A stretch of DNA of 61,338 nucleotides, counting the filler, from Pirum gemmata (taxonomy: Eukaryota): NCBI GenBank assembly GCA_002812295.1. It is 14 parts of 14 records of this genome, joined end to end, with 100 filler letters (N's around TTAATTAATTAA, not from the genome) between each part and the next. Parts side by side here need not be neighbours in the genome. Positions count along the whole stretch, not along the records: positions 8,472 to 12,622 come from PDIN01001440.1; 13 more parts are not named here. One strand, given 5' to 3'. The translations under genes and the position numbers were made by a program. Of this stretch, positions 6,389 through 51,202 are shown one piece after another. The notes below the pieces were generated by a model, which did not search any database, was not told the origin of the DNA, and saw only the letters and a program-made list of their open reading frames with translations. The first letter of the stretch is position 1. The number at the start of each line of letters is the position of its first letter.

Positions 6389-7912
6389 TTAGTTTTTCTG
6401 AGATTGAGATATTCTTTTCTGATGTCGGTGATTTTCCCAACTAAAGGCTTTTGGATCACTAGGCAATCCAGTTAAATCCACACCTGCCTCTGCCATTGCT
6501 TTTTGAAAACTAAGTAAACGAGCATCATCAAAGTCAAGAGATTGCGTTTGCATTATTTGTTTAATTTCTTCAGCTTTGCCACCCTCCAACTCTCTTACAT
6601 CTCCTACCACAATGTTGAGTTTTAAATTGAAGTTTTTACTAGTAAGCCCGTCTTCAACATTACTCAACAATGGTAATTGATCGACACTGTCATTTGATAA
6701 AAGAGATTTTTTCTGTTCATATTTTTTCATATTTTCCAACTGTGGTAATGGATTCAGGACTCTAACCGTAAAGTCTAAATTAGATTTTGATAAATCGTCA
6801 GGAATACTACTAGTGCTGCTACAACTACTACAACTAATACTACTAACATTACTAACGTTACTTTTACTATCGCATGTACATTCAAAACTATCCACACTAT
6901 TATTACACCAAGTTTGGTTTCCAAAACCTTTACCATCGTTATGGAAACCACTGGCCTGCATATGTTCTGATATCAATCTTTTGTATGCGTCTTGTTCTTT
7001 TCTTTCTTCTTCTTCCAATTGCCCAGGACTGCACCGACCTAACTGTATACTACTAGCACTTCTCATGTTACTAAAAGAGTCGGTTGATAGTAAATGGCAA
7101 GACCTAGCTAAGGGTAGTGGGTTATTTACCTTTTTTGAATTATTATTGTTGATTTCCACAGTTTTTGTTTTTCGGATATTGGTGAAAGATGTACGAGCCG
7201 AAGATTTTTCAATATCCTCTGGTTTTTGAATCATAGAAATCATTCTCTCATCTTGCCATTTGTTATTACCTAATTTTCCAAGTTCTTCTTGACCAAAGCC
7301 CATCGCTTCCATATGCTCTTTTATTAATTGTTGTGCTGTTAGCTCTTCGATTTCGTCCTCTTCATCTCTTTGTGTTCCTACTTTAACATCTGCTGAGTTT
7401 TTTCTACTCATATCGCCTGAAATAGTGGTAGTTATAATTAAATATAAATAATTAATTAACAATCAAAACTATTTAAAGTGCTGAATAGCAACAAATTTAA
7501 AAGGGAAAAAAAAAAAACTAAGCAAAAAACATTATATCGACATCATGTTATAATTAATATGACAAGCGCAGTACGTGGTGTGATTAGGGTGTAGGCGAGT
7601 GGGAATTGATTGGTTGTGATTTAAAATTGGTTAACATTTCAACAAGCCCAACAACAATTGATAATAATCATTGGGAAAGGGGAAGGGAGGTTGAGGGGTA
7701 ATGGATCAAAAGCCACACGCAAAAGCAACTGCGACATAATTATGAAATAAGACGAATGTGGTGATGATACCTATAGTTTTAGCTTCCTCGAAACCTGCTT
7801 CGATTAGCTGTTGCTTCAACGCTTCTCTTAGTATTGCTTCTTCTTCTTCTATATCTTTGGTCACAGAAGTTCTACCCAAATCTTCTGTGGGCTTCGTCCG
7901 AAACAGCCACAT
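6389..7912 (-). CDS. Two-exon gene (7912-7771, 7416-6389) with a C-terminal DUF2015/UPF0357-like domain
   Basis: A phase-1 intron (AG|GTATCA ... TTTCAG|GC) joins ORFs 7706..7912 and 6389..7462 in frame. The C-terminus VEDGLTSKNFNLKLNI..GDVR..EEIKQIMQTQSLDFDDARL..GVDLTGLPSDPKAFSW matches the DUF2015 pattern as I recall it. Confidence 0.75.
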
Positions 7913-8189: not shown

Positions 8190-8619
8190 CTAATGCTAAT
8201 GCTAATGCTAATGCTAATGATAATGATAATGATAAAGGCAATAATAATAATAATAGGGATAATAATAATTATTCTAATAATCATAATAGTGATAATAATT
8301 AGAATAATAATAATAATTAGAATAATTATAATTATATAATTATAATAACAATTATTATTATCCCTATTATTNNNNNNNNNNNNNNNNNNNNNNNNNNNNN
8401 NNNNNNNNNNNNNNNTTAATTAATTAANNNNNNNNNNNNNNNNNNNNNNNNNNNNNNNNNNNNNNNNNNNNAATTGTTGGGAAGTATTTAACTACTTCAT
8501 TATAAATCAATCTTGGTTGATTTACATATTTGTCTGCGGCTTCTGGTAATAGTTCGATTTTAACCGGTGAGAGTTTTTTTTCTGCTGTCTCGGTGTCCGA
8601 GTCATTTTTTCAACGCTGC

Positions 8620-8770
8620 TTTCGTGCTCTTGGGCTTGGATTAAAAACTACATTTCTTATCAAAAGTTGTTTTTTCAAACCACTCACTAATAAGACTAGT
8701 TTTTTGCTACGTACTATCTACGCAGGCTCCAAGAGGCAACTGGGTCCCTCCGGACATATCCGGAAGAACT
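8620..8770 (-). ncRNA. Putative Fanzor omegaRNA scaffold overlapping the ORF 3' end
   Basis: Minus-strand stems: GUUCUUCCGGA/UCCGGAGGGAC (11 bp, 2 G-U pairs), CUGCGUA/UACGUAG (1 G-U), ACUAGU/AUUAGU (1 G-U), and long-range CUCUUGG (within 8726-8738) with CCAAGAG (within 8625-8635). The position is as expected for omegaRNA. Boundaries are uncertain. Confidence 0.55.
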
Positions 8771-10509
8771 CGATTTATCGTTAAATATCTCAATAAAATA
8801 TTTCGAGCTGCATTTACATCTCTATCAGATATACACCAAAAAGTTTTGTTCGAACCTAATAAATAATTAATACTTCCACATTAATATTGTCCACATGTTT
8901 TCGAAGTATAAACCTCATCACACACTATTACTTTGCAACCATAGATTTCTGCTTTATGTAATAATCTATTACGAACTCCGCGTGAGCCCAAGTAAACATA
9001 CCCCGAACACTCTTCTTTTTTAACTTGCGTTTACTCTTTTTACCCATCTTCTTGCTTTCAAAGTGTGGAATTATTATGGTCTTATAAGTTCGGTATAACC
9101 AGGTACTTAATTTCTTATGTAACTCTCTGATTTTATATTTTATTTTGAACCTTAACTTAGTTATCGCTTTCTTTCGTTTGTTTTTCTTGGCTTTAAGGTC
9201 TTGGCTATCGACCTTCTTTTGTCCTGCCAATGAAAACAAATTGTTAAGATAATAATAACTATATATCGTAATCCTTTTCATTATCACTAATTAATCTATC
9301 TAGTTTTAATAATAACTTAAAGATATACTGCATATCATCCTTCCCCATTCACTAACTATTCCTTGGTTATCATAGGTTGTTTGAAAACTACGAATCCCTG
9401 GATCTAAAGCTACTACTCCACTACTACTACTGTGACTATAATCTTTAATAATAGGTTTATCTTCAACTATATTAAAATAGTAATCTTTAGTTTTAGTTTT
9501 AATAATTCTTACTGTACAGTTAGGCATAAAGCTGTTAATTGAACCATTGAATAGATTTTGTAAACTATGATAATAATCATCTTGATCAATATCTTGATTA
9601 TTTAGTGATTCATTACTAGTAAATTTTAACATCTTTGAATAAAAAACTTATACTGATTATTTTCACTCTTATTCCAATCTCTAGCTCTCACTTCAAATGA
9701 TTGTTGATTATCTTTCTTACTACGAAACTTAAACGTACAATTAGATAAATAAGCTTTTCGACCAGATTTTTTTTTTTTTTTGTTTACTAGCTTTTCCCCT
9801 CTCTCTTCTTGTTTATTTCCTTTCGCTAAATGCACTCCATAAACCTTATCAAAATCACTGATAGCAGAATCCCAAACATCATATGGAACACTATAAGAAG
9901 CAGTACCCACAAGCCCAGTTTTGTTTCGTTTAGCTTTATACTCGTCCGTAAAAAACCAAGGATACTCATTATAAAAACTATCACTTGTAAAGTATTTGCG
10001 AAGCTGATCTTTACTTAGTTGTTTCTTTGCTAATTCACATTGCACAATACATTGATTATAAACAAATCTACAAGTCCCAAACCATTGGTTTAATTTGGTT
10101 TGTTGGTAACTGGTCTTACAATGAAACTTAACTTTTTTCCCTCTCAAAGGATGTTCATAAGTAACTTTAGCTCGACCACTATTACTATTAGTTTTACTAT
10201 TATCAGGTTCCTTGAATAAATTATTTAGAGCATCATAATAGCTTGTGTTAGGTTTATAATAATTAGCATAAAGTTTATTATATTCATCAGCAGCCAATTT
10301 GTTATCGATAATAGCAGATAAATCACAATTAACGTCAGCAATAGTTTTAGATTGTTTTATTAATGTTGTAAACCATGTATTTTTGGTTAAGTTTTTAAGA
10401 TGTTGATTATTCTTACGATTATAAGGTTTTAAATTATCTTGAAAACAAGACCATAGTTGGTTTGTCCATGTTTAGTAAGGTCATTATGGTAAGGTATGTA
10501 ACCACACAT
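8707..10509 (-). pseudogene. Fanzor2 (eukaryotic TnpB-family RNA-guided endonuclease), disrupted
   Basis: Motifs in the expected order across frames: N-terminal IPYHN..QLW..NTWF; HTH KLNQWFGTCRFVYNQCI; FKFRSKKD; RuvC-I VVALDPGIRSF (D 9402-9404); ELHKKLSTWL..TIIIPHF; MFTWAHAEF; CDEVYTSKTCG (E 8914-8916); DRDVNAARNILL (D 8818-8820). Frameshifts near 10470, 9630, 9343 and 8975, an in-frame TAA at 8882-8884, and the second CxxC pair partly deleted. Confidence 0.92.
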
Positions 10510-10794
10510 TTTTTTTTTCACATTTTTTTTTATTATTAAATTCGATTTCTTTCAAAAAATAATTATCCTGCGTTTAGTCTATATACTTTTTTTTTTTTTA
10601 GTACTTTTTTACCCTGCGCTATAATAGAAAATACAAGTTTAATTACACAACACAACACAACAACACAACAACACAACACAACAACACAACAACACAACAA
10701 CACAACAACACAGCAAGACAGCAACACAACAACACAACAACACAACAACACAACAACACAACAACACAACAACACAACAACACAATTATTATTA

Positions 10795-11057
10795 TATTTT
10801 GCTTTTCATTTATTTTGTCACTCTGAATATTTATTTGGTTGGTTATAGTATTTAAATTGACATATTTAAATGAATAAATAGATAATAAAATATACCAAAT
10901 AAAATGAAATGGATTTATGTTGTACTAATTTGGTATTCTTTATTATATATTTTATAATCTGTTAAACCTGGGGATAACCACTACGCTAGCTTGATCAAGC
11001 TGGTGTAGTGGTTATCCCCAGGTTTAACAAATAACAAAACAACTGAAAAGCACGATA
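10795..11057. mobile_element. MITE family A copy interrupted by a 70-bp palindrome
   Basis: GCTTTTCATTTATTTTGTCAC ... ACAAAACAACTGAAAAGCACGATA, with extra sequence at 10959-11032. Confidence 0.8.
10960..11029. repeat. Near-perfect 70-bp palindrome (35-bp arms, no loop), probably a miniature fold-back element
   Basis: TGTTAAACCTGGGGATAACCACTACGCTAGCTTGA|TCAAGCTGGTGTAGTGGTTATCCCCAGGTTTAACA. Two mismatches. Flanked by a duplicated AAT/AT. Confidence 0.9.
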
Positions 11058-11611
11058 ACTTTAGAAACTTTTCAAACACATCATTTATAAAGGATTTTAG
11101 TTACCAATCACTTTTTGTTTTACAATTATAATATGATAAAAAAAAAACAATATTAATACACGAAGAGAAAGCCAATCCTGTGGCTTTTTTAACATTCGTT
11201 AGTCGTATCTTTGCAAAGGATTTTGATACTATTTTGATTTTTGACTTTTTCCATAGAATTTATTTTGTCTATTATGTCTAGTCACGTCAAGGGGTAGGTA
11301 GGTAGGTGCTATTTGATCGGAAAGTAATGTCGAGGGGTACGTAGGTAGGGGTATTTGAGTCTGTATTAAATTTTGACCTAAAGAATTTTTAACATTATTT
11401 CAATTGCAAGTAAAATAATAATGATAAAAATATCAATATTATTTTAATAATAATTAATAATAATAATAATAATAATTTATAAGACAAATTCAAACATATT
11501 AATTAATTATAAAGTCCAGAATTCACACATTTATTCACTTTTGTTGTGTGTTTGTGTATATATAATATTATATCAAATATGAAGGAGTGGGGCGAACATA
11601 AAAATTTTCAG

Positions 11612-11731
11612 ATAATACGTCACGTCAAGGGGTAGGTAGGTAGGTGGTATTTGACCGGAAATTAACATCGAGGGGTAGGTAGGTAGGGGTATTTGAAGCT
11701 GTGTTTGACCAGAAATTGGCGTTACGCTCCC
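11612..11731. mobile_element. MITE family C copy (another partial copy at about 11281-11378)
   Basis: ATAATACGTCACGTCAAGGGGTAGGTAGG...GGCGTTACGCTCCC followed by TAA. Confidence 0.75.
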
Positions 11732-41006: not shown

Positions 41007-41569
41007 ATCCAAACTTCCAAAGCTTTTTTTTTTGCGATAAATACCAATCAAGAAAATGTATTTAAAAAAAACTATTATCACTCTATTATCGATACTTTTT
41101 CTCCTACTAGCTAGCTCTAGCTACTAGCTAGCTATCTAGCTAGAAGACTCCACAGGAAGACTCCAGACTCCAGAGTCCAGAGTCCAGAATCAGCCAATAG
41201 AAATGTAGAGTCAAGAGAGTAGTAGTGTAGTAGTAGTAGTACTCAGACTCTCAGAGTACTCAATACTACTCATAGCTGTGCTCATAGACTAATTTATATA
41301 GACATTTCCATATGCCAGTTCCATATGTAAAGTGGCTAGCTAGCTAGCTAGAGAGCTGTAACTGAGCTGTACTACTTAGTAGGAGAGCTGTAATATGTAA
41401 TACCTTCATAATATTATGATATCTTTTGAGTCGGATCGACAAAGGAAAAGGCCTAAGGAAAAGGTCCTATCATGTCCATCATTCATGTTTACTCGTGTCG
41501 AAAAATGGGAAGACGAAGATACATTACTAATACATTACTGATACATTTCCAAAAGAATGCATAACTCCA

Positions 41570-48943: not shown

Positions 48944-51202
48944 ATGTTTTGGGCAAAACTGCAAGCACGTACTAAGCACGTCCTTATTTGCGGTATTTTT
49001 TAACGCCAATTTGTTATTCTCCGTTTTGTTCAAGCAGCCAAAAATACAACAACCCTCGGTACCAATATTCCAATTTTGTATCAAACCACTATTCTTCATT
49101 TGCCACTAACTCTAATCAACAAGAAATTAAAAAAAAAATCAAGAAATCTCAAAGCTCTGCTAAAACTAGTTTTAAAGGTAGGAATCGAAAAGACTTTGAC
49201 AAAAACTACTTGATTATTCGTTCATTCAAAGAAAAACAACAAAAGCAACCTACTAAAATTACTACTACTGAACATAAAGATGTTTTTCGAGCGTATTTGT
49301 TTTGCAATTTAGGAGACGAAGCCTTAAAAGTATTGAAAGTACAAGAACAATTAAAGGAAACTATCCATATTCGACAATACAATGATCTGTTGAAATGTTA
49401 TTTAAAACAAAACTATAAACGCGGCATTGAATTTTTCAATAACAATATGCAAGCTAAAGGCATTGCTTGTGACGTTTTTTCATATACTATTTTGATAAAT
49501 GGCTGTACAAAAAAGAATAAAATTGATGCAAGTATAAAATATTTTCAAGAAATGCAACAAAAAGGAATTAGTCCTGATGTTGTCACTTATAATAGTTTGA
49601 TAGATGGTTGTTCTAAAAATGATAGAATTGACGAAAGTATAAAATATTTTCAAGAAATGCAACAAAAAGGAATTAGCCCTAACGTTATCACTTATAATAG
49701 TTTAATAGATGGTTGTTCTAAAAATGATAAAGTTAACGAAAGTATAAAATATTTTCAAGAAATGCAACAAAGAGGAATTAGTCCTAACGTTGTCACTTAT
49801 AATAGTTTAATAGATGGTTGTTCTAAAAATAATAAAGTTAACGAAAGTATAAAATATTTTCAAGAAATGCAACAAAAAGGAATTAGCCCTAACGTTATCA
49901 CTTATAATAGTTTAATAGATGGTTGTTCTAAAAATGATAGAATTGACGAAAGTATAAAATATTTTCAAGAAATGCAACAAAAAGGAATNTAATAGATGGT
50001 TGTTCTAAAAATGATAAAGTTAACGAAAGTATAAAATATTTTCAAGAAATGCAACAAAAAGGAATTAGCCCTAACGTTGTCACTTATAATAGTTTAATAG
50101 ATGGTTGTTCTAAAAATGGTAAAGTTGACGAAAGTATAAAATATTTTCAAGAAATGAAACAAAGAGGAATTAGTCCTAATGCTGTCACTTATAGTAGTTT
50201 TAATAGATGGATGTTCTTAAAATGGTAAAAATTGACAAAAGTATAAAATATTTTCAAGAAATGCAACAAAAGGGAATTAGTCCTACTGTTGTCACTTATA
50301 GTAGTTTAATAGATGGTTGTTCTAAAAATGATAAAATTGACGAAAGTATAAAATATTTTCAAGAAATGCAACAAAAAGGAATTAGCCCTAACGTTGTCAT
50401 TTATAATAGGTTAATAGATGGTTGTTCTAAAAATGATAAAATTGACGAAAGTATAAAATGTTTTCAAGAAATGCAACAAAAGGGAATTAGTCCTACTGTT
50501 GTCACTTATAGTAGTTTAATAGATGGTTGTTCTAAAAATGATAAAATTGACGAAATTATAAAATATTTTCAAGAAATGCAACAAAAGGGAATTAGTCCTG
50601 ACGTTGTCATTTTAATAGATGGTTGTTCTAAAAATGATAGAATTGACGAAAGTATAAAATATTTTCAAGAAATGCAACAAAAAGGAATTAGTCCTGACGT
50701 TGTCACTTACAATAGTTTAATAGATGGTTGTTCTAAAAATGATAAAGTTGACGAAAGTATAAAATATTTTCAAGAAATGCAACAAAAGGGAATTAGTCCC
50801 ACTGTTGTCACTTATAGTAGTTTAATAGATGGTTGTGCTAAAAATAATAGAATTGACGAAAGTATCAAATATTTCCAGTTGTTGTTGCAAAACAAAATCG
50901 AACCAACTACAGAAACATACAACTCGCTCATTGATGGCTGTGGCAAAAATCAAAGGTTGCTTGAAAGTATTAAATATTTCGATGACATGCAAAAGAAAAA
51001 TATACCCAGAAACAATCGTACTTATAACAAACTTATTGATGCCTGTACAAAAAATGGTGAGTTCACCAAAGCTGTACACTATTTTGAAAAAATCAAAAAC
51101 GACGGACTTAATCCAAGTCAAGTAAATTACTTAACTATTATAGATGGTTGTGAATATAGTGGAAACTATGCATTAAAAGAAAAATACTTAAAAGAATTAT
51201 AA
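48944..51202 (+). CDS. Pentatricopeptide-repeat (P-class PPR) protein, about 18 repeats, intronless. Reading frame is disrupted (pseudogene or mis-assembly)
   Basis: 35-aa unit VVTYNSLIDGCSKNDRIDESIKYFQEMQQKGISPD. ATG 48944 is in frame only if the 11-bp duplication ACTAAGCACGT (48971-48981) is removed. There is an N-join at 49989, two +1 insertions and a TAA at about 50198-50232, and a 12-bp deletion near 50608. Confidence 0.9.

What the first reader, a model, noticed from the sequence alone, without database searches (positions are those of the whole stretch)
8707..10509. Fanzor2 (eukaryotic RNA-guided nuclease) relic hidden across several reading frames
Seen: the ORF track splits it into three anonymous ORFs and misses both ends. 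Stitching gives about 580-600 codons with HTH, WED/RuvC-I (ALDPG), bridge helix, zinc-finger remnant and DRDVNAARNI. The canonical RuvC-II Glu is replaced by Pro (TIIIPHF) and an alternative Glu sits in CDEVYTSKTC. Basic NLS-like runs are present (KKKKKSGRK, KKNKRKK). Known: the Glu rearrangement is the Fanzor/pro-Fanzor hallmark, and the PxxN..LW..xWF N-terminal extension plus DPG is Fanzor2-like (IS607-derived). Inference: this copy is dead, but intact relatives may exist elsewhere in this genome and may be an undescribed host lineage. No transposase or serine recombinase is on this scaffold.
Basis: partly seen in the sequence, partly recalled or inferred. Interest (0 to 1): 0.9.

Follow-up and report, generated by a model that had tools for sequence, protein, structure and literature searches.

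The report
Dead Fanzor2 in an animal relative
This is a broken copy of a Fanzor2 gene, a known kind of RNA-guided DNA cutter carried by jumping genes. Its predicted guide-RNA scaffold is still in place, and it belongs to a multi-copy family in what is likely an ichthyosporean, a single-celled relative of animals in which my searches found no Fanzor reported.

Summary
The minus strand at 10509-8707 is a Fanzor2 pseudogene of about 582-600 codons. It has five frameshifts, one stop in a 6-nt insert and a 21-nt deletion in the zinc finger, but keeps the DPG Asp, the alternative Glu and the RuvC-III Asp. Gap-free contigs from public runs span all five frameshifts, so they are probably not assembly errors.

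It carries a strongly folding omegaRNA-like stretch (z about -5) and a pseudoknot that co-varies across relatives. The end resembles the Naegleria Fanzor2 end (CG core, TAM CCG). Close relatives mostly carry an IS607 serine recombinase; this copy has none, so it is a non-autonomous IS607-type element. Trees place it with eukaryotic and giant-virus Fanzor2 and reject a bacterial grouping.

The family is multi-copy in the host. One 94%-identical metagenome contig has an open-frame length, and a deeper sister family shows through. The host is likely an ichthyosporean. The 'scaffold' is 14 concatenated ~4-kb pieces, so wider context means little. The left end and TAM are unresolved. Verdict: a new member of a known kind.

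The parts
8707..10509 (-). Fanzor2 pseudogene, ATG at 10509 to TAG at 8707-8709; five frameshifts, one in-frame stop, one 21-nt deletion
10474..10509 (-). First piece (start of the Fanzor2 N-terminal extension, P[FY]WN-like motif); frameshift at about 10471
9650..10468 (-). Main piece: N-terminal extension, WED, REC/HTH with a ~20-aa insert shared with P0150, basic run KKKKKSGRK; two extra bases near 9624 and 9648 end the frame
9348..9620 (-). WED to RuvC-I with DPG (Asp codon 9404-9402); frameshift at 9345
8976..9342 (-). Bridge-helix region (frameshift near 9280) and RuvC-II strand with Pro (9068) in the canonical-Glu position; frameshift at 8973
8764..8973 (-). Alternative Glu (8916), zinc finger broken by a 6-nt insert with TAA (8881-8886) and a 21-nt deletion at 8830, RuvC-III Asp (8820)
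8634..8790 (-). Predicted omegaRNA scaffold overlapping the end of the gene; 5' boundary not determined
8728..8733 (-). 5' strand of the predicted pseudoknot (CUUGGA)
8634..8640 (-). 3' strand of the pseudoknot (UCCAAG) and right end of the element; the next base is C here but G in other copies
8613..8633 (-). Right flank that would form the guide; its first 7 bases are complementary to the pseudoknot 5' strand region
   Evidence: sequence
10570..10573 (-). Left-end candidate A (ACG|CAGG), favoured by run X2 depth
   Evidence: unresolved
10616..10619 (-). Left-end candidate B (GCG|CAGG)
   Evidence: unresolved
10791..11060 (.). Host MITE-like repeat on the same piece, with 12 other copies in the window, 11 of them on 6 other pieces
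8372..8471 (.). Assembly spacer (N44-TTAATTAATTAA-N44) bounding the physical piece 8472-12622

Best explanation
This is a broken Fanzor2 gene inside a roughly 1.95-kb element with no transposase, likely an IS607-type transposon copy that was moved by a serine recombinase supplied from elsewhere and then decayed. When intact, the protein would have bound an omegaRNA transcribed from the end of its own gene through the right end (8790 to 8634) into the flank. It would have cut DNA where a short TAM, predicted to end in CG, precedes the guide match, namely the empty site left after excision. By analogy with bacterial TnpB (recalled, not read here) that cut would promote copying the element back. 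Shown: the gene, its lesions, retention of all three catalytic residues, the right end, other copies, and TnpA beside close relatives. Inferred: omegaRNA expression, the TAM, mobilisation in trans, the homing role, and the host's identity.
For: Family fingerprint: DPG plus the alternative Glu just before the zinc finger, defined as the Fanzor/pro-Fanzor mark in PMC10711439. Tree: sister to P0150 (100), inside an 18-row group (SH-aLRT 99), within a 37-row branch (99) that holds the giant-virus rows; forcing it with the bacterial/phage rows is rejected, p-AU 0.008 (same neighbours in the 134-row tree). Fold: a model of intact P0150 (pLDDT 77) matches 9B0L best, E 3e-17, with TnpB at 3e-12 and Fanzor1 at 2e-5. 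TnpA: 14 of 21 close loci have an IS607 TnpA motif ORF, and Pfam Resolvase was found in all 3 such ORFs scanned. None lies in the window's piece. Right end: loose ends in runs X2, X3 and X4 all start at 8634. Relatives end in TAA-n-AGCG/GGCG, as does the Naegleria omegaRNA scaffold (...TAAAGGCG, TAM CCG). Folding z is -5.15, and 8651-8800 is the most negative of 14 windows. Pseudoknot: 84.6% of 78 cells paired, 17 double changes, 0 of 500 shuffles, slid controls 23-43%. Multi-copy: 282 X1 records laid, 201 of them under 95% alike.
Against: The left end was not fixed: two CG|CAGG candidates remain, so the TAM and the absence of a target-site duplication are not shown. The base after the right end is C, not the G of the expected CG core. 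The pseudoknot columns and 12 of 28 relatives were picked after seeing the sequences. Per-sequence tests were weak (window p 0.15), and the automatic end finder gave nothing for 9 of 30 relatives. No complete intact copy or TnpA was recovered from this host. Naegleria, mollusc and mimivirus Fanzor2 were not in the trees, and the window row has unusual composition. Rfam has no matching family.
Confidence: 0.85

Rival explanations
1. The gene sits in a cut-and-paste element with degenerate terminal inverted repeats (Fanzor2*, as in Chloropicon and molluscs), moved by a host DDE transposase.
For: Left-end candidate B and the reverse complement of the right end agree at about 13 of 19 positions with one gap (by eye). 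There is no TnpA in the element. Such captures are described in PMC10711439.
Against: No target-site duplication is seen. The right end has the IS607/Naegleria form. 14 of 21 close loci carry a TnpA motif ORF. Run X2 depth favours candidate A, not B. The match is A-rich.
Confidence: 0.07
2. The stretch is part of an endogenised or contaminating giant-virus fragment rather than a transposon spreading in the host nuclear genome.
For: The wider branch includes giant-virus rows, and L001 lies beside an NCLDV major capsid gene. The best viral fold matches are giant-virus proteins. Giant-virus endogenisation is reported in another ichthyosporean (PMC11244446).
Against: The same 4.15-kb piece carries host repeats found on 6 other pieces and no other long ORF. 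No close relative was found in viral contigs, and the 5 right-end motif hits had no Fanzor nearby. A viral origin of the family in the past is still likely.
Confidence: 0.06
3. It is a bacterial TnpB or pro-Fanzor from a contaminant.
For: Pro-Fanzors share DPG and the alternative Glu. A few close relatives lie in bacterial MAG records, though on contigs of 596-2116 nt.
Against: The AU test rejects the grouping, p 0.008. Host repeats lie on the same piece. The sequence is present in three runs of organism A from three studies.
Confidence: 0.02

Closest known systems
Naegleria lovaniensis Fanzor2 (NlovFz2; PMC10432273)
   Same: P[FY]W..LW..WF N-terminal extension, DPGVR[TS]F, omegaRNA scaffold ending TAA..GCG; TAM CCG matches the CG core predicted here (compared by eye).
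   Different: About 490 aa and intact, versus about 582-600 codons and broken here. The window has extra REC, WED and bridge-region inserts shared with P0150. Not placed in my trees.
Acanthamoeba polyphaga mimivirus Fanzor2 (ApmFz2, PDB 9B0L; PMC11832414)
   Same: Best solved-structure match by profile and by fold of the nearest intact relative; N-terminal extension, rearranged D-E-D site, pseudoknot at the scaffold end.
   Different: TAM GGG rather than the predicted NCG; only 17% identical to P0150 in the structural alignment; viral and active.
Fanzor2* of Chloropicon and molluscs (PMC10711439)
   Same: Fanzor2 without its own IS607 TnpA in a eukaryotic genome.
   Different: Those have terminal inverted repeats and target-site duplications; none is shown here, and close relatives keep TnpA.
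Cyanobacterial IS607 pro-Fanzor TnpB
   Same: DPG plus the alternative Glu; IS607 TnpA linkage.
   Different: Separate branch; joint grouping rejected.
P0150/P0001 (unnamed ENA metagenome proteins)
   Same: Sister in both trees, 44-46% identical over aligned columns, shares the lineage-specific inserts.
   Different: P0150 is intact (681 aa, longer N terminus); its host is unknown.

Membership tests
Fanzor (Fanzor/pro-Fanzor clade) | DPG motif at RuvC-I | tested here: met
   ALDPG, Asp codon at 9404
Fanzor (Fanzor/pro-Fanzor clade) | Alternative Glu just before the zinc finger, canonical Glu lost | tested here: met
   E-x6-C at 8916; Pro at 9068; definition
Fanzor (Fanzor/pro-Fanzor clade) | C4 zinc finger followed by the RuvC-III Asp | tested here: inconclusive
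   Three Cys and the Asp remain; the fourth Cys is lost in a 21-nt deletion that other copies lack
Fanzor2 | Phylogenetic position with eukaryotic/viral Fanzor2, outside bacterial pro-Fanzors | tested here: met
   named eukaryotic reference proteins were not in the tree
Fanzor2 | TnpB-like compact fold with N-terminal extension, not the Fanzor1 fold | tested here: met
   Tested on intact relative P0150: 9B0L E 3e-17 versus SpuFz1 2e-5
Fanzor2 | omegaRNA at the right end with a pseudoknot | tested here: met
   Predicted only: z -5.15, covariation; expression not shown
Fanzor2 | Eukaryotic host locus | tested here: met
   Host repeats on the same piece; three runs of organism A
Fanzor2 | RNA-guided, TAM-dependent DNA cleavage | not testable with these tools
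   Needs a bench assay; this copy cannot encode the protein
IS607-type element | Serine recombinase TnpA in the element | tested here: not met
   None in piece 8472-12622; present in 14 of 21 close loci, so read as a non-autonomous derivative, not an autonomous IS607
IS607-type element | Matching dinucleotide core at both ends, no TIR or TSD | tested here: inconclusive
   Other copies and relatives end in CG; this copy reads CC and its left end has two candidates
Fanzor2* (TIR/TSD element) | Terminal inverted repeats and target-site duplication | tested here: inconclusive
   Weak A-rich likeness with candidate B only; no duplication seen; left end unresolved

The most novel reading that the evidence does not exclude
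An ichthyosporean harbours a recently amplified, still active IS607-Fanzor2 family of its own sub-lineage (with extra REC, WED and bridge inserts and an NCG TAM), while protein-dead copies like this one keep a working omegaRNA that intact enzymes could load. That would give a single-celled animal relative in which the native job of Fanzor, homing versus genome conflict, can be tested.
Probability: 0.3. Interest if true: 0.62.

Novelty: new member of a known kind. Interest (0 to 1): 0.4.

Why it matters
The published host lists I read name molluscs, choanoflagellates, fungi, algae, Naegleria and giant viruses. None of my searches found a Fanzor reported from an ichthyosporean, so this would fill a gap among animal relatives. 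It also marks a long-branch sub-lineage with distinctive inserts that could give another compact editor with a CG-ending TAM. The copy itself is dead. The value lies in the family it reveals: copies without these lesions, a 94%-identical metagenome contig of open-frame length, and a sister family at much higher depth.

Tried and rejected
No whole genome is held, so intact copies and TnpA could not be sought in the assembly. A second laying of reads on the left end gave no result, so the left end and TAM stay open.

No run is on record as RNA; X3 is only guessed to be RNA, so nothing is claimed on expression.

Viral-contig scans with the window ORF, P0002 and P0150 found no relative. The 18-nt right-end motif gave 5 viral hits, none with a Fanzor nearby. 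The 281-aa piece alone matched nothing in the PDB. Rfam gave only a sub-threshold chance hit.

Rebuilding the empty site: an X1 contig shares the right flank without the element (loose end at 8624), but by eye it does not continue clearly into either left flank, so this was dropped.

Assembly (homopolymer) error as the cause of the frameshifts was rejected: gap-free contigs span all five, though X1 or X2 may be the window's own source.

Supplement searches: no ichthyosporean genus name was found in the supplements of PMC10432273 (one of 9 files unreadable, one more too large) or PMC10711439, where the Naegleria control was found. For PMC10530073 the control also found nothing, so that search is uninformative.

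The protein atlas gave only sub-0.9 leads for the neighbour gene and did not answer for a second gene. Three look-ups of earlier findings were empty.

Full report
OBSERVATION. Pfam finds HTH_OrfB_IS605 (E 4.4e-8) and Cas12f1-like_TNB (E 2e-6) in two of the five pieces scanned, with weaker TNB and OrfB_IS605 hits in two more. A frameshift-aware alignment to the 8 best of 148 homologues gives about 41-47% identity over aligned positions. Frame changes fall near 10471, 9640, 9345, 9280 and 8973; the fourth is loosely placed, 9173-9284. The gene spans 582 codons to the point where homologues end and 600 to the TAG. The three catalytic residues survive: Asp 9404, Glu 8916 and Asp 8820, with Pro at the canonical Glu site.

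THE LESIONS ARE REAL AND OTHER COPIES LACK THEM. No genome is held, so I used public runs. 12 of 16 listed runs hold part of the stretch; the best three are organism A from three studies. In one search, gap-free contigs span every frameshift: X1 record 8 and X2 record 16 (10471), X1 record 3 (9624/9648), X1 record 2 (9345 and 9280, with 4 substitutions) and X2 record 11 (8973). X1 or X2 may be the window's own source. Other X1 contigs lack the two extra bases at 9624/9648 and the 6-nt insert at 8880, have the missing base at 8973, and carry 21 more bases at 8830. Of 282 X1 records laid, 55 are at least 99% alike, 26 are 95-99%, 111 are 90-95% and 90 are under 90%. In the algae metagenome X4, one 1,632-nt contig covers 8831-10469 at 93.7% identity with a net length difference of 13. 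That is 1 modulo 3, which is what cancels the window's net frame change; it would happen one time in three by chance and does not exclude stops. Depth islands at 8634-8678, 9846-9890 and 10020-10086 show a more distant family. At 9860 the depth is 17,474, 629 and 113 in X1, X2 and X3, against about 470-1,070, 12 and 4-5 for window-like contigs. Its loose ends translate by hand to AYRAHLAKV and KYSVPF, as in P0150. The tool warns that depth is not copy number, so 'abundant sister family' is an inference.

CONTEXT. The record is 14 pieces, 12 of them 4,108-4,231 nt, joined by 13 identical spacers. I read it as concatenated small scaffolds, so only 8472-12622 is physical context. That piece carries a repeat with 12 further copies of 135 nt or more at 83-91% identity, 11 of them on 6 other pieces, so it is host DNA. 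A gene on the next piece (6392-7411) has one homologue in the protein database, an EukProt protein named Pgem_evm2s2260, identical over its first 185 residues but for a 10-residue gap. I recall 'Pgem' as the prefix for Pirum gemmata, class Ichthyosporea (lineage). The host is therefore likely, not proven, to be this ichthyosporean.

RIGHT END AND omegaRNA. Contigs in X2, X3 and X4 begin at 8634 with unlike flanks, each supplying a G after ...AAGC where the window has C. The stretch 8634-8830 folds at z -5.15 with 0 of 200 shuffles as good, and 8651-8800 is the most negative of 14 windows along the element (z -3.9, next -2.2). Among 28 relatives examined, many end in TAA-n-AGCG or GGCG about 150-250 nt after the last Asp; L151 ends TTTTAATCCAAGCG. 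The Naegleria omegaRNA scaffold ends TAAAGGCG and its TAM is CCG (PMC10432273). In an alignment of the window with 12 relatives chosen by eye, a six-pair pseudoknot joins CUUGGA (8733-8728) to UCCAAG (8640-8635). It is paired in 84.6% of 78 cells with 17 double changes, 0 of 500 shuffles reach this, and slid controls give 23-43%. Against this: columns and rows were chosen after inspection, single-sequence tests were weak (window p 0.15), and the automatic end finder failed on 9 of 30 relatives. A pseudoknot at this position is described for IS607 TnpB and Fanzor2 (PMC10711439; PMC11832414). In this copy the first flank bases pair with the same strand in the predicted fold, which might spoil the pseudoknot.

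LEFT END. Two CG|CAGG sites lie 61 and 107 nt upstream of the ATG. A high-depth X2 contig would end near 10575 if its depth equals that at the right end, which favours the nearer site. Paired copies of other relatives also start at a CG, for example L168/L170, L171/L174 and L189/L190. A TAM ending in CG is predicted, not shown. Neither site leaves room for TnpA, and a TnpA profile finds nothing in the piece.

RELATIVES. A profile search found 1,172 proteins at E 1e-10 or better among 7,998 candidates scored. Loci came from viral (66), prokaryotic (80) and metagenome (80) collections, with three canonical TnpB as outgroup. 261 candidates were reduced to 130 representatives. In the 134-row FastTree and a 52-row IQ-TREE subset, the window is sister to P0150 (100) inside a supported group of mostly short metagenome contigs that includes an MMETSP transcript. 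In the IQ-TREE subset that group sits in a branch (99) with the giant-virus rows, apart from cyanobacterial pro-Fanzors, and forcing it with the bacterial and phage rows is rejected, p-AU 0.008. In the FastTree several giant-virus rows fell nearer the bacterial ones, so deep order is unsure. The window row is compositionally odd and named eukaryotic references were absent. 14 of 21 close loci have a TnpA-motif ORF. Resolvase was confirmed in the 3 scanned, and L001 lies beside an NCLDV capsid gene. A model of P0150 (pLDDT 77) matches mimivirus Fanzor2 best (E 3e-17), then TnpB (3e-12), with Fanzor1 far lower (2e-5).

MECHANISM. Shown: a dead Fanzor2 gene, an intact-looking right end, no TnpA, and many related copies. 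Inferred from IS607 biology (circle intermediate and crossover at a shared dinucleotide; PMC10711439 figure legend): TnpA from an autonomous copy moved this element, and Fanzor2 with its omegaRNA cut the empty donor site. The step from cutting to copying the element back is recalled from bacterial TnpB work and was not read here. The family probably reached the host through giant viruses; endogenisation is reported in another ichthyosporean (PMC11244446), but no donor was identified.

LITERATURE SEEN. PMC10711439: parts 2-5 of 7 and a supplement search. PMC11832414: parts 1-2 of 5. PMC10432273: passages, section 5 and supplement searches. PMC10530073: passages and an uninformative supplement search. 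PMC3627910 and PMC11244446: passages. 10.64898/2026.06.23.733943: abstract and outline. No paper held 'Fanzor' together with Ichthyosporea, holozoa, Pirum or 'unicellular relatives of animals', and none of the 30 listed of 190 mentioned Fanzor. The library lacks most subscription papers, and unread supplements could list this host by accession.

VERDICT. A real Fanzor2 relic of the IS607 type: a new member of a known kind, probably in an unreported host class. Interest 0.4.

Noticed in passing
window 41469-41531 (+): A 20-codon scrap resembling the C-terminal helix of IS607 TnpA, between simple repeats on a different piece; TnpA profile E 0.0018, best reversed-sequence control 0.86. No more of the gene was found around it.
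   Followed up: partly
whole window: 14 pieces of mostly 4.1-4.2 kb joined by 13 identical N44-TTAATTAATTAA-N44 spacers; likely size-sorted unplaced scaffolds rather than one locus.
   Followed up: yes
window 8472-8633: The right flank is itself multi-copy: high depth in X1-X3, and an X1 contig shares it without the element. The element and flank junction has higher X2 depth (54) than the gene interior (12).
   Followed up: partly
window 8626-8640: The flank begins with CCAAGAG right after the element's CCAAGC, a short direct repeat that is complementary to the pseudoknot strand over 7 bases; unexplained.
   Followed up: partly
window 6389-7462 (-): ORF with a C-terminal DUF2015 domain (E 7.6e-21), a family labelled fungal; the matching EukProt model stops before this domain.
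   Followed up: partly
window 48976-51202 (+): PPR-repeat protein with many near-identical 35-aa repeats, split around an N at 49989.
   Followed up: no
window 31174-32660 (-): Broken LINE-like reverse transcriptase (RVT_1 E 1.3e-13).
   Followed up: no
window 36743-38315 (+): Two adjacent cysteine-rich ORFs with no Pfam match; the atlas did not answer.
   Followed up: partly
window 10791-11060, 11281-11367 and copies: At least two host repeat families recur across pieces; 10950-11039 is a 45-bp-arm palindrome.
   Followed up: partly
L067-L071: The closest hits in the prokaryotic genome collection are 596-2116-nt contigs inside bacterial MAGs that group with the eukaryote-type clade; they may be mis-binned.
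   Followed up: no
L069:1-1827: The end of the TnpA-like sequence appears to run in frame into the Fanzor2 ORF.
   Followed up: no
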